DNA of 64,000 nucleotides from Chiloscyllium plagiosum. Lineage: Eukaryota. This document shows, piece after piece, positions 9,242-54,028 of this stretch (the first letter of the stretch is position 1; each line of letters opens with the position of its first letter). Position numbers and translations under genes: made by a program. The notes under the pieces were generated by a model, which worked only from the letters and a program-made list of their open reading frames with translations, searched no databases and was not told the origin of the DNA. The stretch covers positions 78,418,935 to 78,482,934 of the forward strand of contig NC_057718.1 of the NCBI RefSeq assembly GCF_004010195.1, read 5' to 3'.

Positions 9242-10518
9242 ATCATCTTGGTTAATGATTCACAATGGCTGCTATGTTGTAACTTTCAATTCATTTGTCA
9301 ACTTGTCTGACATTGGGACAGGAGTAAGCCCTCAGCCTGTCATACCTGCTCCACCATTCAATATGATTGTGGCTGATTGAACACTTTGCCTTTTACTCAA
9401 GTCTTCACTTAACAGCCCTTAACACCACTGGTATTCAAAAATCTTATCAATCTCTATCGTAGCCATACTCGGACTGAATTTCCGTAGCCATCTGATAAAG
9501 CATCCCAAAGGTTTACAACTCTCTGGGAAGAGTAATTTCTCCTCTTAGACTTAAGTGGTGCCACATTATTTTTATTTGTGCACCCTCATTCTAGACTCCC
9601 CAGGCAGCGGGACACATCTTGCCTGCATTTAGACAGCTGATGCAAATTGGGGATAAGGTGGTTCAGGTATAACATGCATTTTGTCAATGCGAATTGACTA
9701 AACACAATTGAAAAATTTGTGGACACTGCTTGGATAATGTGAACTTTCTACGGAATGGTATAGTGATTTTTAAAAAATATATATATAGTGATCTTCTAAC
9801 AGCGTGATTTTCTATAGCGCGACTTGCAGAGGAACACAACTGTAATGTTATAGCAGAACTGCCTGTATTTTCCAGAATTTTGAAGAATGAGCAATTCTCT
9901 TTTTTTAAAAACTTGTAAATTACTTAAATAGGGTAGATTTAGGCAGTGTTCTTTGTAATTGTTTCTGAATGCCTGGACCTCCACAGACTCCAAACTACAG
10001 AATTTTGGAAGATAATCACCAGTGCATCAATCTCTGGCAACTTCCTTCACTTGAGGAGGAAGGCCATCAGTTAATAAATCCCCAGATTTATTTAATTTAG
10101 CTCAATTTGTTTCTCCCATACATTTGTCTTCTGCTAATTTCTTTAACTCCTTATTCTCCCTAGCCATTTGGATCTCTCGTTCTGGGAGATTTCTGGGATG
10201 TTCCTCAGTGAAAGCCGACATTAATAAATCATTTAACTTCTACTATTTCTCTATTGCACCTTTAAGTTCTCTTGACTTTCTTTAATGGACCCGCATTCAT
10301 TTTTGGCAATTATTTCCTTTTTACATATCTAAATGTTTTTAGGTTTTTTTTTGTTACTATATTGCATTCATAATCTGTTCTCTTTCCTTTTTTGGCTTTC
10401 TGGTCCTCCTTTTTGTTGTTTTAAAATTCTCCCAACCCTCAGAATTATTGCTATTTTTAGCAACTTTGTAGGCCGCATCTTTAATCTTATGCAATCCTAA
10501 ACTTCCTTTGTTAGCCAT

Positions 10519-10718
10519 GATTCGGAGATGCCAGTGTTGGATTAGGGTGTACAAAGTTAAAAATCACACAACACCAGTTATAGTCCAACAGGTTTAAGTG
10601 GAAGCACACTAGCTTTCGGAGCGACGCTCCTTCATCACCTGATAAAGGAACGTCGCTCCGAAAGCTACTGTGCTTCCAATTAAACCTGTTGGACTATAAC
10701 TGGTGTTGTGATTTTTAA
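10519..10718. mobile_element. Family-B palindromic PLE-like element with hammerhead-like core
   Basis: Inverted arms of about 86 bp at 10551-10637 and 10640-10724. TSD CTTTGTTAGCCAT (10506-10518 and 10719-10731). Arm core is TGATGAAGGAGCGTCGCTCCGAAAGCTA. Confidence 0.85.
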
Positions 10719-10771
10719 CTTTGTTAGCCATAGTTGACAGCATATGTAGTTGCTCGAAGTCATGCAAAAAT

Positions 10772-14783: not shown

Positions 14784-16016
14784 TATGCTTGGTGCTTTGT
14801 AAGCAGGGTTCTCCCTCCAAGGGGTTCAAGGGTGTCTGAAAGGGATATGGCTAAGTGTCTTATTAAATGGTGCACCTAGAACATTAAGCGAAGTCATTCA
14901 CCTATTAAAAGGAAAAAGTGCTTTCTAGCCTTAAGAGGGAAAGGATTGATATCACTTTGTTGTAGGGAACCCATCTTGATAATGGGGAACACCTGAAATT
15001 ACAATAGGGGGGTTATGACCAGGTATTCTTTACATCCTTTCCTACTAAAAGTAGGGGGGTGGCAGTAGTTATCCAGAAAAATCTTCCATTCACATTATTA
15101 GAGCAGGTGAAAGATGAGCAGGGCCGGTTTGTGATACTTAAAGCCCTGCTGCATGGGGAGGAATATGGCATTTTAAACGTCTACTGTCCTCCGGCGCATC
15201 CCCTCAATTTTTTGATTAATGCTTTCTCTAAGTTGAGTGCTTTTGGAACACGGCACATTATTATGGGGGGGGGGATTTTAATTGTCTCTTGGATCCGACA
15301 GTGGACCTTGTGGGCCTCCAACTATTTCTTCGCAGGCCAAGCAGGTGGTTGACCTACGCGAGGAGTTGGGGCTGGTGGATATTTGGAGATGTCTTCACCC
15401 TACCAGCAGGGACTTCACCTTTATTTTTCAAACCTACGTAAATGTCACACAAGGATTGACCTCTTTCTGGCTCCCTTGGCCCTTCTGGATTCGATTGAGT
15501 TGTAAAATTGGGAATATAGCTATCTCTGATCATGCAGCAGTATACTTGAGGTTAAGGCCAAGAGTAAAGGGCTAGGCTTGTGGCATTGGCATTTGGACCC
15601 TTTTCTCCTTAAGAATTACAAATTTGTGCAATACTTTTTGAAGGAGTTTCAGGAATTCTTGACTATTAACTCAGGCACAGCTAGAAGTCCATCCGTGCTA
15701 TGGGAGACTGCTAAGGCCTTTGCTAGGTGATTAGCTATTTCCTATTTGGCTAGCCGGAAACGACAGGAGGAACAGCAGCATCTACTTGAGACGCGATTGA
15801 AAGCCGCAGAGGCAGCACATTTTGCGCAGCCTTCGGTGACTAAGCTACAGTGGATCGCGGCCCTTCGGCTGCCTTGAATTCAATACTGACACTAAACGCA
15901 AAGAAAGAACTTGCTTTTGCTAGGCAGAGGCTGTTCGAATATGGCGATAGGCCAGGAAAGTATTTACCATACGTGACTAGGAAAAAGCGTGCTCCCCAAT
16001 CCATTACTGCAATCAG

Positions 16017-16198
16017 GCAGCATCCAAGGAGCTTCGAAATCGACGTTTCGGGCAAGAGCCCTTCATCAGGAATAACGATGAAGGGCTTTTGCCCGAAACG
16101 TCGATTTCGAAGCTCCTTGGATGCTGCCTGAACTGCTGTGATCTTCCAGCACCACGAATCCAGAATCTGGTTTCCAGCATCTGCAGTCATTGTTTTTA
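16017..16198. mobile_element. Family-A short palindromic PLE-like element nested in L1 ORF2, with hammerhead-like core
   Basis: Perfect 16-bp TSD CCATTACTGCAATCAG (16001-16016 and 16199-16214). 54-bp inverted arms at 16014-16067 and 16077-16130. Minus strand 16042-16069 reads CTGATGAAGGGCTCTTGCCCGAAACGTC. Confidence 0.85.
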
Positions 16199-17244
16199 CC
16201 ATTACTGCAATCAGACAGGGTCCTTACATATGATGCTAAAAAGATTAATGAGGCTTTTCGGAGCTTTTACTCTGAATTGTATCGGTCTGAAGGTTGCGAA
16301 GACAGGAGTGCTAAAATGGAGAATTTTTTTAAGAACCTGGACCTCCCAGGGGTAACCTTGGAACAGGCCTGTCTTCTTAATGCCCCCTTGATAGTTCAGG
16401 AAATACAGGAGGCAGCTAAGCAACTTCAGAGTGGGAAAGCGCTTGGCCCTGATGGTCTTCCAGGTGAGTTTTACAAGGAGTTTATAGGGATTCTGTCAGG
16501 GCCGATGTTGGAGATGTACAATCACTCCTATATGCATGAACACCTGCCACCATCTTCGAGAGAAGCTAATATTTCCTTAATTCTTAAGAAGGGGAAGGTT
16601 CCTGAGGATTGTGCCTCATACAGGCCCATCTCTGTAGTAAATTCAGACTTCAAGATTCTATCCAAGATCCTGGCGCTGAGATTGGAAAGGGTGTTGCCCC
16701 ATATTATTAGAGAGGACCAGACAGGTTTTATAAGGGGCCGTAGGTCCTCTAATAATATTAAAAGGTTGCTGAATGTGGTCCAAGTTTGTCAGCAGCGATC
16801 GATTCAGGGGTTGGTGATTTCCTTAGATGCAGCGAAAGCATTTGACCAGGTGGAATTGACGTATCTTTTTTGTGTCTTAGAACTGTTTGGGTTGGGTGGA
16901 GTCTTTGCTAGGTGGGTGGAGGTTTTATATTGCCACCAACTGGGTGAAGTCTGGGAATTTTATGATTGGTAGGGGTAGTCGGCAAGGCTGCCCCTCTCAC
17001 TGTTGTTGTTTACATTGGTGATAGAGCCACTGGCAGAGGCTATTTGTCAGAATGTCCACATAAACATTCCGGAAGTGGGATCAAGAGCACACAAGGTTAC
17101 ATTGTACGCAGATAATATCCTTCTGTTTTTATCGAACCTGATCACCTCCGTACCCAGTTTGATACAATGTATCAATTCATTTGGGTCTATTTCAGGATAT
17201 AAGATTAACTGCAAAATCAGAGGCTATGCCTTTGGGGAACCTTA

Positions 17245-17420: not shown

Positions 17421-19270
17421 CAAGTTTGATCTGTTATTTCGGACTAACTTTGCTCATTGCTCGACAATATTAGGCGAGATCTCCAGAGATGGAAGGCTCT
17501 TCCAATTTCATGGCTGGGCCAAATATATCTCCTTAAGATGAATGTTCTTCCTCGTTTGCTTTATCCCATGTGTATGCTCCCTATAATGTTTCCCAGGTCA
17601 ACGCTGCGGTAGCTTATCGGGTGGTTTGGTTCCTTTGTTCCATCGTGGGTGGTCCCTCATCAAACTTACTAAATTGCAGTTGCCTTGAGGAGGGGGAGGA
17701 GTTGATTTCCCAGACATCAGAAGGTATCAATTGAGTTCCCTGCTGTCCTTTGTCTGTGATTGGGTAGGTAACGATCCAGACTCAATATGGCTGGATATTG
17801 AGGCCTCCCAAGCAAAGTGCCCTCTTATTAACCTGTTGTTCATGGATAAGATGAGGACAGTTACGGACCACTGCCGGAACCCCATTGACATTAGTACAGT
17901 CAAGGCATGGAGGGCGATGCGTCATAGTGAGGGTTGTTTATCCAAGACTTCACCACTTACACCTATAGTTAGCATGCCAGGGTTCTGACCAGGGATGATG
18001 GACTCAGGGTTCAAACTATGGACAGGGAGAGGAGTTTCTAGTTTGGGAGACTTGTTTGAAGGGGAAGTTATGATGTCTTTTGAGCAACGGGCCGCAAATA
18101 CAGGTTGCCCTGCAGAGACCTTTACCGTTTTTTTCAGGTTAGGGATTTCATCCAGAAGAAGACTATGCTTCTCACTACGCCCTATAAGCCCGATACAGAG
18201 AGGTGGTTGCTACGTTCCACAAACACCTTTCGGTTAGTGCCCTTTATCGCCTGCTGGGTGGCAGGGCCTGGCAGGATATTAACCGGTTATGAGAGGTCTG
18301 GGAGCAAGAGCTGGGAATGGAGATATCGTCTGAAACCTGGGAGAATACTCCAAAGATCTCAATCTGTAACAGGACATGTACTATGCAGTTAAAAGTTCTG
18401 CACAGGGCTCATCTGGCACCAGACCGTCTGGCGAAGTTTAAAACCGGGGAATCTTCAGTATGCCCCAAATGTAAAATAAGTGTAGGTACTCTTACCCATT
18501 GCTTCTGGACATGCCACAGGCTCCGTGTTTATTGGAGCGCTGTGGCGGGAGAGATAGGGAGGGTATTGAGGACTGAAGTCAAAGTATACCCAATATCTCT
18601 CCTCTTTGGTCTACTGAATTTACCATCTTTAGACAGGCATGGGAAGAAACTATTTAATATTCTTGCATACTGTGCAAGGATACTTCTGTTTAAATCCACA
18701 AAAATCTTTGTTTTTTTATTTGTCCGTGCCTTAGAAGGTTAAGAAATAAGCTGCTCTTTTTTGAAAGCGTATTGATCATGGAAAATAGATTGAACATGGA
18801 TTTCGTTAGTTCTGTCGCCTTGTCCGTAATGTGCTTCATTGGGCCTGATATTACAAGCAGTGTGTTGAAGAGGATGGTGACATAATGTACCTTCATCTTG
18901 GTGCATCTGACATTTGCTTCAATAACTAATTTTCAATTCTTCCTGCAACAACTTTGTGGTTTAAAAATCCTGATGGGTATCATGTTTTTATTTAAGTGTT
19001 GATGGTGTACTTCCCCTTGGCAAATATCTCAATCATAAAAGCTCTTAATTATACCTAAATCAAATGTTTCTTTTCTTTTCATCTCATCTCTCTTCTCCCC
19101 CAGCGCCCCCCCGAAATGTTCTTCAACTTCAATCCTCATGTTAGCATTTTCCCTATGTTTTTGTAACATGATTAACAACAGTATTTCCAACACAGGTGAC
19201 CACCTATAATATGGAGGCCTTTATTGATCTGGTGATGTAGCTTTTCATTTCTATTCGCTTTTGTTTCCAG

Positions 19271-19457
19271 ATGATGACCTGGATATAGTTTTCTCTTCTA
19301 ACTCGGTGTGTGGCCGCGACAAATCCAAGAATGTCTCATCCACTATAATACTTCACTGTAGTGAATTGACAGGGGAAGGGAACCCAGACTTCCTTCATGA
19401 AACTTCAGACTGCCAGTATCTGTTTACCTGGTACACATCAACAGTCTGTGCACTAAC
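19271..19457 (+). CDS. IGF2R: IGF2R exon, repeat 15 C-terminal half
   Basis: Acceptor tttccAG. Reads [61 protein letters not shown], versus human DGDLDVVFASSSKCGKDK...HETADCQYLFSWYTSAVC. Donor GTGAGT at 19458. Confidence 0.96.
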
Positions 19458-19621
19458 GTGAGTTTCTCCAGAAAGACTGACTTGATTTTTTTTTCAGTTT
19501 TCCTGCTTCTACATTTTCGTAATTACTAAATTTTTATTGTACTGGACTAAGAACCATCTTTAAAAATCTATGGAAGCTTTCAAAGCTTTTAAACTTAATC
19601 TCACTCAACATGTATTTGTTT

Positions 19622-19846
19622 GGTCATCATGGTTTGGTATTGCTAGTGTTGGATTGGGGTGGACAAAGTTAAAAATCACAAAACACCAGGTTATAATCCA
19701 ACAGGTTTATCTGGAAGCACTAACTTACGGAGCGCTGCTCCTTCAGGTGGTTGTGGAATAAAATATACTGATGGAGCGGTGCTCCGAAAGCTAGTGCTTC
19801 CAGATAAACCTGTTGGACTCTAACCTGGTGTTGTGATTTTTAACTG
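19622..19846. mobile_element. Family-B palindromic element
   Basis: Same AAGTTAAAAATCACA...GGAAGCACTA...GCTCC arms in inverted orientation. TGTATTTGTTT is duplicated at 19611-19621 and 19847-19857. Confidence 0.8.
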
Positions 19847-20464
19847 TGTATTTGTTTAAGTATTTTTGCAAATAATATGCATTTATTTCCCAAGATTATA
19901 TTAAAGTTTTCTCCTTCAAGAGTGTACTTCATTTTGGATATTGAAATGTGTTTTGTATTACATCAAACATTATAAATGGGAATAGAGAATGGAAATGCAT
20001 TCTGACTGACTTATATGTAAGGTGTGAAAATGAAAGGCATTAACAAATTAATGTGTGCAGTTGGCCATATGGCAGAGGTTTGCAGCTTGCAAAAAGAGAT
20101 TTTGCTTGTAAAATAAAATCTCCAAATTTAATTACTCAAAAAATACAAATTTGACCCTTCATTTTTAGATGAACTATAGTAGAAGTCTTGCACAAATAAT
20201 AAAGTACATAAGTAGAGTGTATAGTTGGAGACCAGGAGGTCCTATTTCATGCTTTAACCCGAAGGAAAGCTAAATCTGTGTAACTGAAAGCTTGATAGCC
20301 ATATGATAAAAAAGGTTGAACCAAAAATGGTAATGTAAGACTAAGCAACAAAACAATGCCCCCAGGATACAAAGTATGAGACCTTTGCTTTCCAGAGGAA
20401 ATTATCAATTTGTTTGCTTAACATCCTCACACTGACAAACTAATTGTGCTTGTGTATAGTACAT

Positions 20465-21509: not shown

Positions 21510-22783
21510 TTAGCTTGTGGTGAAGAGTTGCTTTTCAGACTGGAGGCCTGTGACCATTAGTGTGCTGCAAGGATCAGTACTGGGTCCACTGTTTTTGATC
21601 ACTTGTATAAATAGTTTGGAAGTGAACATACGAGGTATGTTAGTAAATATGCAGATGATGCCAAAATTGGTGGTGTAGTGGAAAGCGAAGAAGGTTACTT
21701 CAGACTACAACAGGACCTCGTTCATATAAGCTGACGGGCTAAAGAGTGGCAAATGGAGTTTAATTTAGATAACTGTGAGGTATTGCATTTTGGTGGAGGC
21801 AAATCAGGGCAGGACTTGTACACTTTGGGATCTGGAGTGTGTTGCTGAACAAAGACCTTGGAGTGCAGGTTCATAGTTCTTTGAAAGTGGACAGGGTAGT
21901 GAAGATGGTGTTTGGTATGCTTGCCTTTATTGGTCAGTGCTGGATTAGAGTGGCGCTGGAAAAGCACAGCGGGTCAGGCAGCATCCAAGGTGCAGGAAAA
22001 TCCATGTTTCGGGCAAAAGCTCTTCATCAGGAATAGAGGGCTGATCTATTCCTGATGAAGGGCTTTTGCCCGAAACATCGATTTTCCTACTCCTTGGATG
22101 CTGCCTGACCTGCTGTGCTTTTCCAGCACCACTCTCTAATCCAGACTCTGGTTTCCAGCATCTGCAGTCCTAGTTTTTACCCTTTTTGAGTCAGTGCATT
22201 GAGTATAGGAATTGGGAGGCCCTGTTGTGGCTGTACTACATTTGGTATACTCTGTTCAATTCTGTTCTTCCTGCTAATAGGATAGGTGTTGTGAAACTTG
22301 AAAGGGTTTAGAAAAGATTTACAAGGATGTTGCCAGCGTTGGAGGGTTTGAGCTATAGGGAGAGGCTGAATAGGCTGTGGCTATTTTTCCTGGAGCGTCA
22401 GAAGCTGAGGGGCAACCTTAAAGGCTTAAAATCAAGATGAACCTGGATAGGTCAACTAGTCAAGGTCACTTTTCCTCAGGCTAGGCAAGTCTAAAATTAT
22501 AGGACATGGGTCCCTTCAAAATGTTTCCCCCCTCAGCTTAAACCTAAGGGGCAACCTTTTCGCACACAGGAAGTGCATTATGGAATGAGCTGCCAGAGGA
22601 AGTGGTGGAGGCTGGTATAATTACAGCATTTAAACGGTGTCCGAATGGGTATGTGAATAGGAAGGGTTTTGAGGAATATGGGCCAAATGCTGGCAGATGC
22701 GATTATATTAATTTAGGATATCTGGTCAGCCTGGACGAGTTGAACCAAAGGATTTGTTTGTGTTGTAAAACCGTATGACTCTA
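21510..22783 (+). mobile_element. CR1 LINE 3' fragment interrupted by a family-A element
   Basis: Decayed QGSVLGPLF, KYADDAKIG and KDLGVQVH motifs. 3' UTR ends TATGACTCT. Confidence 0.88.
21941..22180. mobile_element. Family-A palindromic element nested in CR1
   Basis: Inverted arms of about 90 bp around about 22035-22045. CTGATGAAGGGCTTTTGCCCGAAACATC at 22052. Flanked by GTCAGTGC on both sides (imperfect TSD up to about 17 bp). The host CR1 resumes after it. Confidence 0.85.
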
Positions 22784-25737: not shown

Positions 25738-26715
25738 AAAAATGATCGTATTGAATGATGGAGCAGACCTCACAGACTGGTAACTTCTCCTATTCCTTAT
25801 TTTTGTGTATTTGTCACTACTTTCCATTGTGTAGCATTCATAATTGTAAACAAAAAATTATACTCCATCCATGTGCATGTCTCCTGTAAGAAAGCATAGA
25901 ATGCTGTTAGGCTCTCCGAAGGACAGCTAAAGTGGCCTCTGCGCAGTAGCGGACAGCAACTTATAAGTTGTTATTAATGTCCCAAATACATACATGGTCA
26001 CCTTTTTACAGTAACTGGCTGTGCCCTGAAGTTAGAATTGTGACTGCAGCAGTTAACAGCTTTCAGTGAGGACTTCATTAAGAAGTTCCAATATCACGCT
26101 GGTTTTTCTCCCCAAAATTCAGATAGGGGAATTGCTCTATGATATGCCCCCTGTGAAAATTGTGACTCCAATTCTCCCAGTTGTGCTTGATTCCAAGAGA
26201 AATGTTGACGAGCACACCAACATTTGGAGCCTAGGAACAGCTGGTTTGGGCAGAAAATCAGCAAAAGAACACACGTCTGCTATATTACACCCTACATACT
26301 TTGTTTCGTGTTTCAATGAATTTAACATGCAGTTTTTTAGCAATAAGTAAAAGTAGTCAGTCATCAACTAACACGTAAGCAGTTTGATTATCCTTTCAAC
26401 TAGCACTATTGAGAAGTCATGCTTGCAGAAAAATGTGTATTGCTTAAAGCAAGTTGTCAAATGGAATATTAAGCTACAAAATAGAAGTACTAACATCAAG
26501 ACTATGCTGCACGTGAGGTGAATAATTATAAATTTATTCAGTCTTTCCCACCAGCTGGATATCTATCCTTTGCCATTTAGCCATCGGTATCCAGCATTGG
26601 GTGACCATTAAAATAAGATTAATTGAAGCTGTTCTATTGGATTTCTTTAGATTAAAGGCTAGGGTCTCAGTAAAATCAGGCTGGGAAGTTATTTTGTATT
26701 TTTTTCCCCAATCAG

Positions 26716-27156
26716 ATTAATGGGCAAGAGGACGGTGATGAAAATGAGACTGAATGGTTGATGGAAGAAATCTCCTCGTCTGAGAATGGACAGAAACCAG
26801 CAAAAGAGTATCAGCAAAATGGCTTGACCCATGTCACTAAAGCTGTAAACGCTGATGTATTTGGGTCATTCCCACTGGATGATCAGGACAGTGAAGATGA
26901 GGTTTTGACTGTGCCACAAGTGAAAATCAGCTCAACCAGAACAGGAGAGCCCAAGATCAGGGGTAATCAAAAGCAGCGGCATCCACAAAACAAGCACTTT
27001 CATGATGAAAGTGATGAGGATTTACTTGGTTTAAATAATGAAAAGAAGGAAACAAAGGGAAAATTGAAACCACAAATGAAGCAAAACAGGCCAGCAAATG
27101 ACTCCACAAATATCACTTTTCATGATGACAGTGATGAGGACATGCTAAAGGGTTAA
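26716..27156 (+). CDS. IGF2R: IGF2R last coding exon (cytoplasmic tail) with stop codon
   Basis: Acceptor ccccaatcAG. Reads INGQEDGDENETEWLMEEI...DDQDSEDEVLTVPQVK...TFHDDSDEDMLKG*, matching the human ENETEWLMEEI, DDQDSEDEVLT and FHDDSDEDLLHI motifs. TAA at 27154-27156. Confidence 0.96.
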   Translation: MNGQEDGDENETEWLMEEISSSENGQKPAKEYQQNGLTHVTKAVNADVFGSFPLDDQDSEDEVLTVPQVKISSTRTGEPKIRGNQKQRHPQNKHFHDESDEDLLGLNNEKKETKGKLKPQMKQNRPANDSTNITFHDDSDEDMLKG

Positions 27157-28880: not shown

Positions 28881-29007
28881 GCAAAAGTGAGGACTGCAGA
28901 TGCTGGAGATCAGAGTCCAGATTTGAGTGCTGCTGGAAAAGCACAGCAGGGGCAGCATCTGCGGAGCAGTAAAATCCACTTATCGGACATAAGCCCTTCA
29001 TCAGGAA
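28881..29007 (-). mobile_element. Family-A single-arm copy
   Basis: Same GACTGCAGATGCTGG...GCTGGAAAAGCACAGCAGG...CCCTTCATCAGG sequence. TTCCAAG is duplicated at 28874 and 29008. Confidence 0.75.
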
Positions 29008-30681
29008 TTCCAAGTCAGGATGGTGAGTGGTTTGGAGGGAACTTATGTTGGTGTTCCCATATATCTACTACTCTTATCCTTCCAGGTGGAAGTGGGTGTA
29101 GCTTTGGAAGGTATGATCTAACACTTTTTTTGCTAAATTTCTACAGTGCACATTATAGATACATACTGTTGCTCCTGAACGTCAGTGGTAGAGGAAGTGG
29201 ATATTTGTGGATGTAGTGCCAGTCAAGTAGGCTGCTTTATTCTGGATGGTGTCAAGCTGCTTAAGTGTTTGAAGTTACACTCAGCCAGGCTAGTGGGGGA
29301 ATATTACAGCACACTCCTGACTTGTGTAATATATAGATTGAGGACTAGCTTTGGGAAGTCAGGAGGTGAGTTACTTGTGGCAATATTGCCAAGTCCCGTT
29401 GTAGCCATAATTTATTTGAGTCCACTTGAATTTCTGGTCAGTGGTTTCTCACCACCTCCCCACCCCCATACAAAGATATTGTAATAAAATGATAGAGTAG
29501 ACAAGAAAGAAATTACAAAATCATGACAATGGACAATAGGTGCAGGAATAGGCCATTCAGCTCTTCGAGCCAGCACCACCATTCATTATGACTATGGCTG
29601 ATCATCCTCAATCAGTATCCTGCCTTATCCCCATAACCCTTGATTCCACATGGACATAAGCCTGGTAATTCACATTAGTGGGTAAATAGTTATAAATTAA
29701 TTATAACTGAAATACATTAAAGCAAAATCAGTCAATTTATGTATTAAAATAGGAAATGACTGAGGGACAACACAGCTGATGCGTCAGTTTCATGTAACTG
29801 TGCTATCTTGATTTGCCTTGTTTCTGTAAGGATGCTGCCATGCCAGTGATATCTTCCAGACCTGGAAATCCAAATTCTATGGAGGATCCAGTAAAGCTGT
29901 CATTAAAATTAATTACTTGGTAAATGAGAGTTAATAAACATTTACAACTGAAATATGGATGGTGGTATCTGACATAGATGTTTGTGACATAAATATGCAT
30001 GTTTATTTACGCCACATTGAGCAAATGCATAAACTGTTGCCATGTTAAACTCAGCATTGATTTTTACTTTAGATGATTGGGAACCTTTGAAGCAAGGTTG
30101 AGAGCTATAATATTGAAATTACTACTTCATTTTTAGACCAATCCAGGATTAACCTTTGGGAAATCATCTACCCTTGAGGAAATTAGCTGGTGTTTATAAC
30201 AATTCTGTAAAGGATGTCCTGTTTCTCAAAGCTTTGTATCCAATTCTGAGCTCATTTTGCCATTGCAGCCCATCACCTTTTCAGAATAATTAAAGTGAAA
30301 ATTTGTTCTTTTTTTTTTTGTTTCGTGGGTTCTTAAATACCACAATTGTGCAATTTTAACCTTTTTTGGGTTGAAAAAATACAATTGGCCAAGGCAGCCT
30401 TGAGGATGAATTCAGAGTACAGAGGGGATGGTGTCATGGAACTACTAAGGAACAACTGTTTGAAATCTCCGAATGTGTAATGAGATGAATGAATCTTGAG
30501 TAAAGAATTTTTTTACCACAAGGGTGATCATAACATGATAGAGTTTTACATTGTATTTGAAGGTGAGAAACTTGGGTCTGAAACTAATACCTTAAAGGCA
30601 AATGGAAAAGCTAGGATATAGTTAACTGCAGTGAATTGGAAAAGTGGGTCAAAGGGAAAGATGGTACATAAACAGCAGCAA

Positions 30682-30845: not shown

Positions 30846-30904
30846 AAGATATTTTTCAACTCAACAAAGATGTACTCCATTGAGAGAAACAAAGGAAAGC
30901 TAAA

Positions 30905-31033
30905 GATAAAAATCACAACACCAGGTTTTAGCCCAGTAGGTTTATTTGGAAGCACTAGCTTTTGGAACGTTGCTCCTTCATCAGTTGGTTGTACAGTTGG
31001 GCTATTACCTGATGTTGTGATTTTTAACTTTGT
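30905..31033. mobile_element. Family-B element, internally deleted; a further arm lies at about 31820-31935 with intact CTGATGA at 31853
   Basis: Reads AAAATCACAACACCAGG...GGAAGCACTAGCTTTTGGAACGTTGCTCCTTCATCAG...TGTTGTGATTTTTAACTTTGT. Confidence 0.7.
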
Positions 31034-31149
31034 ACATCAGCATCAAATCAAAACTAAAGATGAAATCACATTGAAGGTAAAAGCAAACAGTGCTGCAATA
31101 CAATGGGTAGGAAACGAAGTTGAAGATGTAAAATATATGTAAAGACATA

Positions 31150-31585
31150 TGGTAGATGCAGGTTTGCTCGCTAAGATGGAAGGTTTGTTTTCAGATGTTT
31201 TGTCACTGTACTGGTAACATCTTCAGTGAGTGTCCAGATGAAGCACTGGTGATGTAGCCCCCTTTGTTTGGGTTTCCTTGGGTTGGTGATGTATTTCCTG
31301 TGATTATGTCATTTCATATTTTTCTTGGGGTGATAAATGGGATCCAAGTCACACTTGATAGAGTGCCGGTTGCAATGTCATGCTTCTAGGAATTCCCGTG
31401 TATGTTTGGCTTGTCCTAGGATGGATGTGTTGTCCCAGTCAAAATGACCCACTCTCATTAGTATCCTTACATACGGAATTCTGAGAAGCATGGCGTTCCG
31501 ACCGAAACACACTCAACAAACACATTATTTGGATCCCATTTACCATCCTGTGAGAAAAAGAACAGGAAATGATGTCACCACAGGA
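31150..31585 (-). mobile_element. Penelope-like element 3' relic (GIY-YIG C-terminus plus pLTR) with inverted partial duplication
   Basis: Minus strand about 31353-31446 translates HFDWDNTSILGQAKHTREFLEA*HCNRHSIK. A plus-strand inverted copy (...EAWRSDRNTLNKHI...) lies at about 31474-31580. A hammerhead-like motif is on the minus strand at 31191-31229. Confidence 0.75.
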
Positions 31586-34500
31586 GTTATACATTGAAAT
31601 GTGGGGTGTGTGTGGTGGAGGAGGGTGGCAGTTTGTGTTTGTGAGTATATGAGCGTGTACAGGGGTCGAAGTCTGTGAGAAGGTGTGTGTGTGCACTTAA
31701 ACTTGTTGAGCCCCAGTGTATCTCCACTTTGTCCAGGCCCTGGACTGAGTAGGTGCTGGGAGTATCTAGAACTGGAGGACACAGTTTCAACATACTGTAT
31801 AATTTCAGTTATATCACATTATAAACTTTTGCTATAAATTCTCCACAACCACCTGATGAAGGAGCAGCTCTCAAAAAGCTAGTGCTTCCAATTAAACCTC
31901 TTTGACTATAACCTAGTGTTGTGTGATTTTAACTGAAATCTTTGACTATTGTACATAATGTAGCCTTCACTAAGCACTACTGATCTCCTAAGAGAATCAC
32001 ATTTCCATATCAGTTCAAAGTTATTGGAAACTTGAAATTAATTTTGAGCCTAGATTTTCCATCATTATTGGTAGTATGAATCTAATTTAGGCAGTTCTTT
32101 TTTTAAAAAAAACAACAGGTCACATCTTGATTGTGTAATTTATTGATTTTTTTTCCTTCATGATCTGGTTGAATCTTTTCATTTTCATATTGTATTGATG
32201 ATCTGTCATGCCATCTGTATGTAGAGTCCTCTTTCAGGATTGGGAGGTGGTGTATTTGGAGGCTGAGGGGTACTGGGGGCTAATACAATTGTGTTACATG
32301 GAGAACTCACTGAAATGTCAGTCTTAGATTTCCTCGAGCTAACTAGTTTCAGTGCTAAACAATTATTATCTCCAACACATACAAATCGTACCATGGTCCC
32401 TTGACATTCAATGGCATTACCATTCTGGGAGTTACCAGTTTAGCATGTGGCCACTTGCATTGCAGATGGCACATGAAGAGCTGAAGTCATCCAATCCAGG
32501 ACATCACCCATGTACTGAACTTCTGCCCTGAGAAATCCATTCCTGGTGGCAACATAACCCTGCACACTGCCTCAGCTGAAATTGTTGAATAGATTGTTAA
32601 TTTAGCATCAAATGTTAGTCATTCCCAGCCATGTGATTTTTGAAAAAAAATGTTTATTATCACTAATAGGAAAGCTTTTAGAAACCATCGTTTGGGGAAA
32701 ATTACCTAACATTTAGATTAACTTTCCCATATTAAGTCCATGTTTATGTTTGACTAATCTGAGTTTTTGATCAGGGCAGATGATGTTATATGTAAGAATT
32801 TTCAAAAGGCCTTTGATTTTAGAGGGATTATTACACTTCTGGGCAAGATTTACACCTATTGGAATTAAATAAAATGCTTTAAATTATATAATGCCTTTCC
32901 TGAACATCTTGTAATATTACAGTGCAGCAAGACCTGGAAAATATGACAGCAATTTTATCCTGCATGTACAATGCTTCAGTCGGCCTCTGATCATAAATAA
33001 GCAGACCTATGCCAATCCATCAGATTATGCTGATATGATTATGGCCTTAGCTCAACATCCCTGTTTGCCTCCTTATTCTTTAATTTCCTTATTGATAAAA
33101 ATCTGTCCAGCTCAGTCTTGAATATATTTAATGACACAGTCTGCACTAGATTCATGAGAATTCTAAGGACTGTGGAGGAAAATGAGTTCTAAGGAATTCT
33201 GTGGAGGAAAATGAATTCCAATGTTCTGCCTCACTGGACTAGAAATCAATCCTTGCTATTCCCAAAGTCGTCATAAAACTTTAAGATTTTAAGTGCATTT
33301 AATTCCCCAATTTACTTGTCTCTTCAACCTCGGTTGACAGAAACTATTGATCAGGTTTCTGTTCTTAACATAAATTATTTAAAAGCTGAAAGAACTGTGC
33401 ATGCTGTAAATCAAACAAAAACGTAAATTGCTGGACAAGCTCAGCAGACTGGCAGCCTGAGTTCTGAGGAAGGCACTCTCAACCCAAAGCATTTGTCTCC
33501 ACAGATGCTGCCAGACCTGCTGAGCTTTTCCAACAATTTGATTTTGCTTATGAATTACTTATTAGAATTAAATTGATCCTAGCAACATGTGCACAATTGT
33601 GAACCATCAGCAAGTAATACTAGTTAAAATGCTAGATTTTTGGAGGCATAGGGTAGCTGGTTCATACTTATTTAAAATTCAGAACTTTTATAAAAGTCTA
33701 CGCTTACAACAATGATTGAAGAAAGAAAAAACGTTTTCTTCAGGTTTAAAGTGGTTTTGCTGCTGAGAAAAGGTGCAGTTCCTGAACTGCTGGTGATCTG
33801 ATTGCTTATTCCCATCTTATTCACAGATTTAAGATGTTCTGTTATGAGAGAACCAGACAGTTGATGGAAGGCAAAAGATGCCTTTAGCGTTGAGAACTGG
33901 TCATTGGTCCACGGACTGATCAGCTACTTGTGGGTTGATTCTCCATTTGTACACAGACCTGACTCCAAACCTACACTTTCTACTGCTGCTTGAACTAGCA
34001 GCTGTCTAAACAGTGCTTGCAATGAGCGTACGATTACTTGATTTTTAAAACTGCAGTAATCGTTCAACCATTCTTGGTTTTAAACCAATTCTTTTCCCAT
34101 TCAGTGCATACTCAAAAAAACAAAATCATTATTTACGCTGTCCACAGGGTTTGCTGAGATGATCATTTTGGGACCTTCTGCATCTTTTGATATACCAGCT
34201 CCAGGTATTCCCACTTGTTTGTAGGAGGCACACTGTGATTGGTTCATACTTGCATTTCTGACTTGCTGAAAGCTTTCGCTCTTTACCAGTGACTGATGAG
34301 GGGAAACAAACTGGCTTTCTTCAAGCTTGGTATTTAAAACAAAAATTCAGGAGGACAGTTCCTTCCTTGCTAGAGATTTGTTGACTTCTAACCAAGCATT
34401 CATACACTTCAGCTGCCTGGGAGCCAGTCACATACTGGTAGGCAGAGAGCCTTTGCCATTGGTTTGTGGACTGGTGACCAGTTATCAATCAGTTACTAGT

Positions 34501-35947: not shown

Positions 35948-37264
35948 TTAATGAGATTGTGGCTGATCTGATGATCTTCAGTTCCACTTTTCTGCTTTCC
36001 CATGTAACCCTTGATTCCCTTACTGGTTAGAAATCTGACTATTCCAACCTTGAATATTTTTAACAGCTCAGCCTTGACAGCCCACTGAGCTTAAAACAAA
36101 TCCAGATTCACCTCTGACTGAGAGAAGTAGCTTCTCCTCTGATTCAAGTGGGATACCCCTTACTCTGGTCCTGGACGCTACCCTGTCAAGCCCCCTAAGA
36201 ATCTTGAATATTTAAATAAGGTAATCTCTTATTTTTCTTAACTCCAATAAGTGCAAAATCAACCTACTCAACCTCTCCTCATAAGGCAATCCCTCCATAC
36301 CCAGGATCGACCTAGTCCACCATTGCTGGACTGTCTCCAATGTCAGTGAATATATTTCCTTCAATAAGGGGACAAAGTCTGTTCACAATATGATAGATAT
36401 AGCCTGACTAGTGTCTTGCATAGTTTTAAATTACCAGGTCAAAGAACATGAGAAGAACAAGGAAATTGTAATCTGAAATTCCTGAGGTTAGAAATTTCAC
36501 TATCCAAATAGTTACATTAGAGCATGTTTGAATTGTTTATACCATTTGTAATCTTTTACTTCTGCAATGTCCTGCACTAAAGTTAAACATTATAATTTAT
36601 TTTGGGTCACAGGTTGCAACTTAGCCAAAGTAAACTTAAAATGCTTGGTTCCATCAGTCATTGATTTCTTAGATTTTCGATTTCTCCACTGAAATCTAAT
36701 AACCCAAGTTGGTACTTCAGATCTTGGGAATGTTGTAAAACACTTTTGACGTCTAAGCTGGCAGTTAGTGAGGCCATTGTCGGTAATGTTTGTTGAAAGG
36801 TCTTGATCATTATTGATGCATTGACTTAAATTCCTGTTGAATTGTGACTTGAATATTTTCAGACATTCTGGAATTGCAGGCAGAGCAATCAGATTTACCA
36901 AATTAATTTCATTATGAAAGATCCCCTTGCATCTGATCAAGAATTACATAAACAAGGACAGGATCAGTTTCAAATACGGTTTTCCTTCCCCTTTCATGGA
37001 GCAAATCTCATAATTGGGATTGAACAAGGCGATAGAAAAAGCAACAGCTCCAACATTTCTATAAAATTAATCTTCCTTGTACTGCTCTGGACCTAGAATT
37101 CAGGCATTATTAAACCAATGGCTGTAAAAGTGTCTCAGTTGAAATATAAAGATCTGTGATAGGTATAAATAGAAATTGTAATTTCTGACTTGTTTCTTTC
37201 TAAATTGCCTCACTCATCTAAAAATATATGTTGCTCAAATCACCAGTGCCGCAGTGAAAAACTG

Positions 37265-37820
37265 TAACGATCTCCTCAGAAGACAGGCACCCAATGTAAC
37301 CGATAGAGTGCTCTTTGTCCTCCAGTACTTCCCCCAGAGCTGAGTAACTACACCAGGTTCTTTGCAGCCTTCAGCATGTCATCGATGACAACTAGCATCT
37401 CATCAGGGTCATCCTTACACCGCCACTTCTCATCTTCAAGCAACTGCCAAACCTTAAACAGACCATTGTTCGCAGCAAATTACCCAGTCTTCAGGACACA
37501 CCTTGTCATGGCAACTGTTGCAAGACATGTCAGATTATTGACATGGATACTACCACCACATGTGGGAGCATCATTCACCACATGCATGGCAGATACGCAT
37601 GTGACGTGGCCACTGGTGTCGACCTTCTATGCTGCAGGCCAGGATGCCCTGAGGCATGGTGTATTGATGAGACTATGCAGATGCTATGACAATGGATGAA
37701 TGGACATGCAACAATCTCCATACCTTTCCAGTGGAGGAACTTCAGTGATCAAGGACATTCAGCTTTTGATCAAGAAAGCGTCCTTCAGGCAGATTTCAAG
37801 ATTCACAACAGCGCAGAGTG
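37265..37820 (+). mobile_element. Penelope-like (Neptune-type) element relic: linker, Cys-rich motif and GIY-YIG endonuclease
   Basis: One frame reads TDRVLFVLQYFP...PPLLIFKQLPNLKQTIVRSKLP...PCHGNCCKTC...GRYACD...DLLCCRPGCPEAWCIDETMQML*QWMNGH, a decayed VYLIxC...YIGETxQxLRxRMNGH. Contains in-frame stops. Confidence 0.8.
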
Positions 37821-52784: not shown

Positions 52785-54028
52785 TGCCAGGATTGGATAA
52801 AGTCAGCATAGTTTACAAAAGGGAAATCATGCTTGACAAATTTACTGGAAGTTTTTGAGGATGAATATCGGAGAATTGATTGGGGTTAAGTGAATATCGT
52901 TGCCTTGAACTTTCATAAGGCTTTTTTAAGGTCCCACATTAAAAGATTACCATGTACAATTAATGCTCTAATTTACCACTTAAATTACAGAGAACAGCTT
53001 GGAAGGTGGGAAGCAAAGAGTAGGAATAAATGGCATGCATTTGCTGACTCATCCAACTTCTCCAAATCACACTGATGCAAGTGACCAACGGGCAACTGTC
53101 GAGATCAGTGCTTGGACCAGAGCTATTTGCAATTTATATTGATTATTTTGATCAGGAAATTAAATGTAATTGCCAAGTTTGCAGACAACTAAAAGCTAGG
53201 TGGGAGGGTGAACTATGACATCAGCAAATTGGAGAAGTTGAATAAGTAGGCAAATCCATAGCTGATGAAGTATAGTGTGGATAAATGTGAAGTAGCAAAA
53301 ACAGGAAGACAGATCTGAATGCTGACAGACTGGGAGGTACAATGACATCTGGATGTCTTGGTCCACCAGTCACTGAAAGTAAACTCGTAGATGGAGTAGA
53401 CAATGAAGAAGAGAAATGGTATGTTGGCCTCCATAGAAAGAGGAATTGAGTACAGGTTCAAGGCTACCTTTCTACAATCGTATAGGGCCTTCTTCAGACT
53501 ACACCTGAAATATTGTGCAGCTTTAGTCTCCTTATCTGAGGAAGTTCTGGCTATGGAGGAAGTGATTCTTAGGACGGTAGGGCTGACCTGTGAAGAGAGA
53601 TTGGATCAGTTAGGACTAAAATCACAGGGGTTTAGAAGAATAAGGAAGGAATCTCATGGAAACCTGTAAAATTCTAACAAGACAGGATAAACACAGGAAA
53701 GATGTTCCTGAAGATGAGAGAGTCCAAAACCAGGGCTCACTATTTAAGAATATAAGGTAGGCCATTTAGAACTGAAATGAGGAGACGTTTCTTCATCCAG
53801 AGAGTGCTGAGCCACCTAGGATTCTCTCGCACAGAAATTGGTTGAGGCTAAAACATTTAATGGTTTCAAGAAGGAGTTAGATATAATTCATAAGTCAAAA
53901 AGGATCAAAGAGTACAGGGCAAAAGTAGAAACAGAGTACTGAGTTGAATGATCAACAATGATCATACTGAACTATAGAGCTGGCTTAAAGGGCTCAATGG
54001 CTTACCCCGTTCCTATTCTCTATGTTTT
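52785..54028 (+). mobile_element. Old CR1-type LINE fragment; more decayed upstream sequence from about 52200
   Basis: Decayed KSCLTNLLE, NFHKAF, KFAD and RLHLKYC motifs. Tail CCTATTCTCTATGTT. Confidence 0.75.

What the first reader, a model, noticed from the sequence alone, without database searches (positions are those of the whole stretch)
10506..10731. Family B: a sequence-unrelated palindrome family with the same hammerhead architecture and compensatory changes
Seen: inverted arms of about 86 bp and a 13-bp TSD, with other copies at 19622 (11-bp TSD), 30905 and about 31850. The composite core is CAC-CTGATGA-A-GGAGC-(loop)-GCTCC-GAAA-GCTA-GTG. Compared with family A, stem II changes GGGC/GCCC to GGAGC/GCTCC, the stem III palindrome changes ACGT to AGCT, and the cleavage triplet changes GUC to CUA (still NUH). 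CTGATGA and GAAA are kept, and CAC/GTG gives a 3-bp stem I. No single copy shows every position intact. Inference: covariation between two otherwise dissimilar families argues for a real RNA structure, and for two independent PLE lineages producing palindromic satellites.
Basis: partly seen in the sequence, partly recalled or inferred. Interest (0 to 1): 0.75.

Follow-up and report, generated by a model that had tools for sequence, protein, structure and literature searches.

The report
Mirror-image Penelope stub with polyA signal
This 226-base stretch in an intron of a vertebrate IGF2R gene is a real insertion of two back-to-back copies of the ribozyme-bearing end of a Penelope-type jumping gene, a known layout that was likely built on the spot from two short DNA copies of one RNA, and RNA reads show that this family's end also carries a working polyadenylation site.

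Summary
B1 has 93%-identical head-to-head arms and a 13-nt TSD. In two related species the flank alignment stops exactly at the TSD end, as expected of an empty site. Thousands of contigs keep CTGATGA, GGAGC/GCTCC, GAAA-GCTA and CAC/GTG as majority letters. The same core sits beside Neptune-type RT and endonuclease fragments in two marine contigs.

These are not satellites and not ribozyme dimers. Copies are dispersed, their centres differ, and only two of four are long palindromes. All six ribozyme-bearing arms are broken, and the hairpin is predicted to sequester stem II.

The layout (inverted pLTR, one-sided 30-40-nt tail, variable TSD) is the published Penelope-like signature, here in miniature. 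It most likely arises by twin priming from two internal reverse-transcription starts: in 3 of 5 two-armed copies each arm holds sequence the other lacks.

Two additions. Poly(A) is added 13 nt after ATTAAA/AATAAA inside the arm, upstream of both insertion ends. A 7-10-bp stem links that region to the tail in families A and B.

The scan has reported this kind before (66 notes, at least 10 genomes, including this genome). My one word search found none mentioning polyadenylation.

The parts
10506..10518 (+). TSD, left copy (13 nt); its last 2-3 nt also match the family's long 3' end
   Evidence: contigs of two related species align up to 10518 and then continue with 77 and 96 unaligned letters (table 8)
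10519..10637 (-). B1 long arm: 3' end of a PLE pLTR with tail
10519..10556 (-). Tail (32-40 nt) between the long family end (10516-10518) and the short family end (10552-10556); AC-rich in the sense strand
   Evidence: loose ends into unique flanks at both places; tail defined in PMC8557442, PMC3846280, PMC11167929
10538..10590 (-). Predicted long-range stem (7 bp in this copy, 9 bp with majority letters) pairing the stretch after the poly(A) hexamer with the tail
   Evidence: majority letters at 10542 and 10544; predicted only
10578..10598 (-). Family polyadenylation signal (hexamer 10598-10593, mutated in this arm) and poly(A) addition site near 10580
   Evidence: poly(T) loose ends at 10578 (391 reads) and 10581 (332 reads) of 1,788 RNA reads laid
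10607..10638 (-). Minimal hammerhead of the long arm; C3 replaced by G at the junction, predicted inactive
   Evidence: family majority at 10638 restores C3
10634..10643 (.). Inversion centre: ATCA-CC-TGAT, with a 4-nt microhomology shared by the two arm starts
   Evidence: sequence; C31849T variant gives this upstream context
10634..10718 (+). B1 short arm, no tail; hammerhead 10636-10670 with G8A, a stem II mismatch and a stem I mismatch; ATTAAA at 10679-10684
10719..10731 (+). TSD, right copy; its first 6 nt also continue the arm
19611..19857 (.). B2: long arm 19622 to about 19767 (minus), short arm about 19768-19846 (plus), 11-nt TSD; both ribozymes carry 3-nt core deletions
30900..31070 (.). 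B3: short-ended arm with ribozyme 30902-30992 (minus, G12A) and a long-ended arm without ribozyme, 30996 to about 31053 (plus); probable degraded TSD (two 8-nt exact pieces)
31796..31934 (+). B4: single arm ending at the short end; runs at least 57 nt upstream of the core with a deletion of about 20 nt at 31842/31843; G12A; no TSD found

Best explanation
B1 is a dead-end insertion of two short, head-to-head copies of the hammerhead-bearing end (pLTR) of a Penelope-like retroelement, probably of the Neptune type, likely made when the element's enzyme cut both target strands 13 nt apart and primed one cDNA from each cut on the same kind of RNA. Shown: insertion between TSDs, empty site in relatives, two preferred family 3' ends about 35-40 nt apart, one arm using each end, a min-hammerhead majority sequence, and poly(A) addition inside the arm upstream of both ends. 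Inferred: the two ends are internal reverse-transcription starts, as in anole Poseidon. Because polyadenylated RNA stops before them, the template would be a 5' leader or a read-through pLTR. One primer pairs 6 nt with the short start and the other 2-3 nt with the long start. Both cDNAs end near the front of the ribozyme, probably close to the RNA's 5' end, and anneal through ATCA/TGAT. The ribozyme was selected in the parent element. In the palindrome it is broken and is predicted to be locked in the hairpin.
For: Empty sites end exactly at 10518 in organisms B and C, and the filled junction is seen in another sample of organism A (table 8). Long end: loose ends at 10516-10518 in 116, 335+495 and 64+40 contigs. 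Short end: 10552-10556 in 41+45 and 15 contigs (listed rows only). 5 of 5 two-armed copies in the window (B1, B2, B3, A16, A21) have one long and one short arm. In 3 of 5 (B1, B3, A16) each arm holds sequence the other lacks, so neither is a fold-back copy of the other. The arms of one insertion share private variants (B1: 1-nt deletion and GT insertion; B2: G in the hexamer region), and centres differ between insertions. The single-arm B4 also stops at the short end. PAc nicks and extends both strands and starts at two internal sites that flank the tail, the main one 111-118 nt into an ORF that begins at stem II (PMC11167929); B1's long end lies 112-114 nt after stem II. The same ribozyme core lies next to a PLE RT piece and a CX4CxxC + CCHH GIY-YIG with a C-terminal stop in L001 and L002. 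Poly(A) loose ends: 960 of 2,394 and 723 of 1,788 RNA reads, only on the ribozyme strand.
Against: No B-family ORF was found, and the decayed Neptune-type piece at 37234-37764 has no pLTR attached. The link to L001/L002 rests on the ribozyme. Downstream similarity is significant for only 2 of 5 B arms (1 and 5 of 500 shuffles), and those loci are rearranged. B2 and A21 also fit fold-back, and later deletions could mimic the 3 of 5. 5' ends are not fixed: most laid copies continue upstream of the core, B2 runs about 19 nt and B4 at least 57 nt upstream, and no RNA 5' end was seen (table 6 empty). A16's short arm ends about 30 nt earlier than A21's. PAc primes without homology in vitro, whereas these junctions show microhomology. 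Poly(A) reads come from one sample and from unknown loci, possibly host genes ending in B copies.
Confidence: 0.62

Rival explanations
1. Fold-back self-priming: one cDNA loops back at a short palindrome near the ribozyme and copies itself (the model offered for inverted pLTRs in Adineta).
For: The centre has a quasi-palindrome. PMC3846280 proposes self-priming for head-to-head junctions. B2 and A21 are compatible. Private variants shared by both arms are expected.
Against: In B1 the loop bases lie on the short arm's cDNA strand, which lacks the tail that the long arm has. B3 and A16 likewise have arms with mutually exclusive sequence. The short end is a family-wide peak that a single-arm copy also uses.
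Confidence: 0.15
2. Remnant of a full insertion (inverted pLTR, pLTR, ORF, pLTR) whose ORF was lost by recombination between the direct pLTRs.
For: Full PLEs have this arrangement with tail and TSD, and solo pLTRs are ascribed to recombination (PMC3846280).
Against: Both arms are cut at the ribozyme's front rather than keeping a full pLTR, though upstream pLTR exists in the family. The copies are dense: 4 B and 3 A insertions in 64 kb.
Confidence: 0.1
3. A non-autonomous palindromic element (retrozyme- or satellite-like) that is itself transcribed and re-copied: the first reader's view.
For: Two opposite-strand joints occur in high-depth contigs of X4 (depth 210 and 362 against about 6 for the flank), which may be repeated junctions. 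Retrozymes are reported to derive from PLEs (bioRxiv 2026.07.22.740005).
Against: No tandem array. Centres differ. 0 of 6 cores are intact. Stem II is unpaired in the hairpin. Retrozymes are defined as head-to-tail tandems.
Confidence: 0.08
4. A MITE or other DNA transposon that happens to contain a hammerhead-like motif.
For: Long inverted repeats with TSDs.
Against: TSD length varies (13, 11, 16). The termini are asymmetric. Single arms occur. The same core lies beside PLE genes.
Confidence: 0.02

Closest known systems
EN+ Penelope-like element insertions with inverted pLTR, one-sided tail and TSD (Pen2a_Av, PMC3846280; general scheme PMC8557442)
   Same: Head-to-head inverted pLTR, 30-40-nt tail on one end only, variable TSD, short palindrome or overlap at the inverted junction.
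   Different: No ORF and no second direct pLTR. Both arms are cut at the ribozyme's front, so the insert is only about 200 nt.
Minimal type-I hammerheads of metazoan PLEs (PMC4209133)
   Same: Core boxes, extra base after A9, G10.1-C11.1, palindromic 15.2/16.2, no loop 3. That paper also notes opposite-strand motif pairs 100-700 bp apart in Schistosoma.
   Different: Stem II is 5 bp with a 3-nt loop and stem I is 3 bp. The pairs here are adjacent. Cleavage was not assayed.
Poseidon from Anolis carolinensis, PAc (PMC11167929)
   Same: Two 3' ends flanking a tail, similar distance from stem II, AC-rich tail in a predicted stem-loop, AT-rich flanks.
   Different: B appears Neptune-linked. Its junctions show 2-6 nt of microhomology. 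The parts of that paper I read do not describe a poly(A) site.
Non-LTR retrozymes (bioRxiv 10.64898/2026.07.22.740005)
   Same: Short, protein-less, PLE-derived, type-I hammerhead; reported in one cartilaginous fish.
   Different: Retrozymes are head-to-tail tandems that can dimerise. B copies are dispersed, head-to-head or single.
L1 twin priming
   Same: Two primers from one staggered cut give an inversion joined by microhomology.
   Different: In L1 the inverted piece comes from further upstream and barely overlaps. Here both arms copy nearly the same 85 nt.

Membership tests
EN+ Penelope-like element insertion | pLTR carrying a minimal type-I hammerhead | tested here: met
   majority letters; criteria from PMC4209133
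EN+ Penelope-like element insertion | Inverted, 5'-truncated pLTR in head-to-head orientation | tested here: met
EN+ Penelope-like element insertion | 30-40-nt tail on one end only | tested here: met
   loose ends; 5 of 5 two-armed copies of families A and B
EN+ Penelope-like element insertion | Variable-length TSD | tested here: met
   13, 11 and (family A) 16 nt; empty site; none found for B4
EN+ Penelope-like element insertion | Parent ORF with PLE RT and GIY-YIG endonuclease joined to this pLTR | tested here: inconclusive
   no B-linked ORF in the window; same ribozyme core beside such genes in L001 and L002
Neptune (or Nematis) clade | CX2-5CxxC linker before a C-terminal CCHH GIY-YIG, in the parent | tested here: inconclusive
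   met for L002 (definition); transfer to family B is indirect; no RT tree built
Active hammerhead ribozyme | Intact core in the genomic copy | tested here: not met
   0 of 6 B arms in the window; met by the family majority and by L001/L002
Active hammerhead ribozyme | Self-cleavage after CUA as a dimer or with protein | not testable with these tools
   needs an assay; RNA depth shows no drop at the site, but short products would be missed
Non-LTR retrozyme / satellite | Head-to-tail tandem units, each with a ribozyme | tested here: not met
   none of 8 tandem-repeat rows overlaps a B copy; arrays elsewhere in the genome could not be checked
MITE / DNA transposon | Symmetric terminal inverted repeats and constant TSD length | tested here: not met

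The most novel reading that the evidence does not exclude
The pLTR of this family is a miniature LTR-like control unit: ribozyme, poly(A) hexamer, cleavage site and GU-rich element, followed by a conserved stem-loop that holds two reverse-transcription starts. Polyadenylation removes both starts from the mRNA's 3' end. Ordinary mRNA can therefore be copied only from its 5' leader, giving the masses of 200-nt twin-primed palindromes, and only read-through RNA gives full elements. As a by-product the family has scattered working poly(A) sites through the host transcriptome. This would explain why PLEs need tandem copies to move and why stubs outnumber full elements.
Probability: 0.35. Interest if true: 0.6.

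Novelty: new member of a known kind. Interest (0 to 1): 0.3.

Why it matters
The layout and the ribozyme are published features of Penelope-like elements, so the feature itself is not surprising. Its use is as a natural record of an unresolved step, namely how inverted pLTRs and one-sided tails form. Thousands of miniature copies with readable ends make twin priming versus fold-back testable by counting. The poly(A) site upstream of both insertion ends is the most useful new fact: it constrains which RNA can be the template, and it suggests that host transcripts may end in these repeats.

Tried and rejected
No whole genome was held, so there is no genome-wide alignment, R-scape-type test or parent search. 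Rfam at gathering thresholds gave 0 hits in the window, which is uninformative for minimal hammerheads. The core pattern gave 0 hits in viral contigs, 0 in prokaryote genomes and 2 in metagenomes. The homolog search with the L002 endonuclease gave 2 unnamed proteins of 92 candidates. Pfam did not recognise the L002 piece itself. The run search listed no RNA holder. Run X22 laid 0 reads, which is no test. Single-arm folding is not better than shuffles (z 0.46 to -1.29). The dimer calculation only shows that the AGCU duplex is weak (-2.5 kcal/mol). The automatic alignment of A, B and C ribozymes was out of register after loop II, so no pair counts were made. An apparent collinearity of B1 with A21 (26 of 2,000 mononucleotide shuffles) did not hold across 15 pairs. 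The idea that arms start at the ribozyme cut site was rejected: no window arm does, and only 1 of 8 listed opposite-strand joints and 0 of 8 fall there. A TATA-like hexamer about 40 nt before the core in intact copies is not at that place in L002 and is left as a lead. The tail stem is not significant in L002 (101 of 300 shuffles). The paper on dimer cleavage of PLE hammerheads (PMC5785218) is not held.

Full report
Setting. The window is vertebrate DNA. Exons at about 590-780, 19270-19455 and 26710-27150 match consecutive or terminal parts of the cation-independent mannose-6-phosphate receptor, IGF2R, and the exon at about 46360 matches SLC22A organic cation transporters. The exons at 590-780 and 19270 match residues 2164-2227 and 2227-2289, so B1 lies inside that one intron; B2 lies about 150 nt after the second exon. 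No whole genome was held.

Observation. B1 has an exact 13-nt direct repeat at 10506-10518 and 10719-10731; random flank pairs reach this in 2 of 20,000 draws. The arms align over 87 columns at 93% and fold at z = -20. blastn and nhmmer find the three other copies. B2 has an 11-nt TSD. B3 is asymmetric, with about 40 nt of inverted overlap and no ribozyme in its second arm. B4 is a single arm. The left arm of B1 is 32-40 nt longer than the right.

Insertion. Laying public data on 10300-10645, a 772-nt contig of organism B aligns 10300-10518 and a 268-nt contig of organism C aligns 10349-10518. Both then continue with 77 and 96 letters that do not align to the element. I could not see those letters, but the stop falls on the last base of the first TSD copy, as expected of an empty site. 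A contig from another sample of organism A spans the filled junction (10351-10553).

Ribozyme. On B4, 15,055 contigs of organism A, 12,800 of organism B and 2,394 RNA reads aligned; a fourth run gave none. No variant at 15% or more was listed in CTGATGA, the AAA of GAAA, GCTA or GTG, and B4's private changes revert to GGAGC-AGC-GCTCC-GAAA. Variation sits in loop II, at the closing base of stem II (C or T; wobble-compatible, but also what CpG decay gives) and at the first base of stem I. This matches the published minimal PLE hammerhead (PMC4209133, parts 1-2 of 4 read). All six ribozyme-bearing B arms in the window are broken: in B1, C3G at the junction on one arm and G8A on the other. PMC11167929 reports that C3G abolishes cleavage. 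In the B1 transcript of either strand, stem II has pairing probability 0.0. The palindrome therefore cannot be the dimer substrate.

Parent. A pattern scan found the core in 2 metagenome contigs and in no viral or prokaryote contig. Both hits also match letters that were not in the pattern (CAC before, AGTG after) and have AATAAA shortly downstream. L001 holds an RT piece (Pfam RVT_1, E 1.5e-5, below the curated cut-off). L002 holds a CX4CxxC linker plus a CCHH-type GIY-YIG ending in a stop, 44-47% identical to two unnamed proteins in which it is C-terminal. That architecture marks Neptune or Nematis (PMC8557442 passages). The loci are rearranged and share 677 nt, so they count as one family. 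Similarity to B beyond the ribozyme is significant for 2 of 5 arms. The window's own Neptune-type fragment (37234-37764) has no pLTR. A Neptune-type parent is thus likely but indirect.

Two 3' ends. Contigs leave into unique, AT-rich flanks at 10516-10518 (116 in X4; 335 and 495 in X13; 64 and 40 in X16) and at 10552-10556 (41 and 45 in X4; 15 in X16). X13 also lists 427 at 10524 and X16 lists 38 at 10534; 605 rows were not shown. The stretch between the two ends is the PLE tail (30-40 nt on one end, PMC8557442; 31 nt in Pen2a_Av, with inverted pLTR and 9-nt TSD, PMC3846280; passages). In PAc the tail lies between two reverse-transcription starts, and both strands are nicked and extended (PMC11167929, main text read; supplementary figures not readable). 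All five two-armed copies of families A and B in the window have one long and one short arm.

How the mirror half forms. Fold-back requires one arm to be contained in the other. In B1 the short arm holds the stem I 5' strand and C3 that the long arm lacks, while the long arm holds the tail; B3 and A16 are alike. B2 and A21 do not discriminate. The short-arm junctions overlap the TSD by 6 (B1), 4 (B2) and 4 nt (A16), and the long-arm junctions by 0-3 nt, which suggests that priming at the short start uses base pairing. At B1's centre the two cDNA ends can anneal through ATCA/TGAT. Why the cDNAs end near the ribozyme's front is not shown. An RNA 5' end there is my inference; B2, B4 and most laid copies run further upstream, and no RNA starts were seen.

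Polyadenylation. In one poly(A)-primed single-cell run (about 2% read), 443 + 517 of 2,394 reads laid on B4 and 391 + 332 of 1,788 laid on B1 continue in poly(A) from one site, allowing for ambiguous A's: about 31909 on B4 and 10580 on B1. The two read sets overlap. The site is 13 nt after ATTAAA/AATAAA and directly before a GU/U-rich run, on the ribozyme strand only. The listed DNA loose ends show no such A-tracts. The reads carry several subfamily variants, and only 3 were 95% or more like B4, so they come from other loci. The site is about 28 nt after the ribozyme cut and upstream of both insertion ends. A polyadenylated 3' end therefore cannot template these insertions, which fits internal initiation. 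Whether the RNAs are PLE mRNAs or host transcripts is unknown.

Tail stem. In all five long arms of A and B tested, the best long-range Watson-Crick helix (7-10 bp) starts 15-20 nt after the cut site and pairs with the tail. It is strong in two (3 and 1 of 300 shuffles), weak in three (29, 46, 34 of 300) and not significant in L002 (101 of 300). This is a lead for the protein-binding or initiation element, not a result.

Novelty. The architecture and the ribozyme are in print. Seven literature searches surfaced no paper on such palindromes in sharks or on a poly(A) site in a pLTR; the two listings were seen as listings or as passages for other terms only. Repbase, Dfam and subscription journals were not searchable. 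Also seen as passages only: PMC8969392, PMC5753468, PMC6765202, PMC2377424; bioRxiv 2026.07.22.740005 parts 1-2 of 5 plus passages. The scan has 66 notes of this kind in at least 10 genomes, several reaching the same twin-priming reading (mine was noted beforehand). A word search for polyadenylation among them found none. Verdict: a new member of a known kind, interest 0.3.

Noticed in passing
window 31190-31590: A third PLE-like family (C): an inverted pair of fragments that by eye resemble the end of a Poseidon-type endonuclease (recalled, no call confirmed it), with a decayed hammerhead core on the minus strand at 31226.
   Followed up: partly
window 37234-37764 (+): Decayed Neptune-type PLE ORF piece (linker zinc finger and GIY-YIG; tblastn E 2e-19) without a pLTR.
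   Followed up: partly
window 16001-16214, 21933-22197, 28885-29010: Family A copies: a palindrome with a 16-nt TSD inside an L1-like element, a palindrome with an 8-nt repeat inside another LINE, and a single long arm. The arms show no AATAAA/ATTAAA after the ribozyme.
   Followed up: partly
window 10705-10710 and 19827-19834: In both B1 and B2 the short arm lacks the same 2 nt of the TG run that the long arm keeps; B3 lacks it in both arms and B4 keeps it. Slippage or a mark of the short start.
   Followed up: no
joints 10514-10557 and 10515-10556: Three contigs join a long end to a short end tail-to-tail, the opposite of the usual arrangement.
   Followed up: no
joints 10567-10637 and 10597-10634: Opposite-strand joints in high-depth contigs (210, 362) and in 11 and 17 RNA reads: possibly repeated asymmetric palindromes, or alignment artefacts.
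   Followed up: no
window 31833-31838: TATAAA about 40 nt before the ribozyme core once B4's deletion of about 20 nt is allowed for; possible promoter, not at that place in L002.
   Followed up: partly
L001 967-1001, L002 1331-1365: An intact ribozyme core identical to the family B majority except in loop II, in marine metagenome contigs: deep conservation, transfer or convergence.
   Followed up: partly
window 10634-10718 within the IGF2R intron: The short arm is in the host gene's sense with an intact ATTAAA, a possible cryptic intronic poly(A) signal predicted to be buried in the hairpin.
   Followed up: no
window 33406-33558 and 53035-53259: Two further old inverted-repeat pairs (76% and 84% complementary); the first looks like another decayed ribozyme-centred palindrome.
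   Followed up: no
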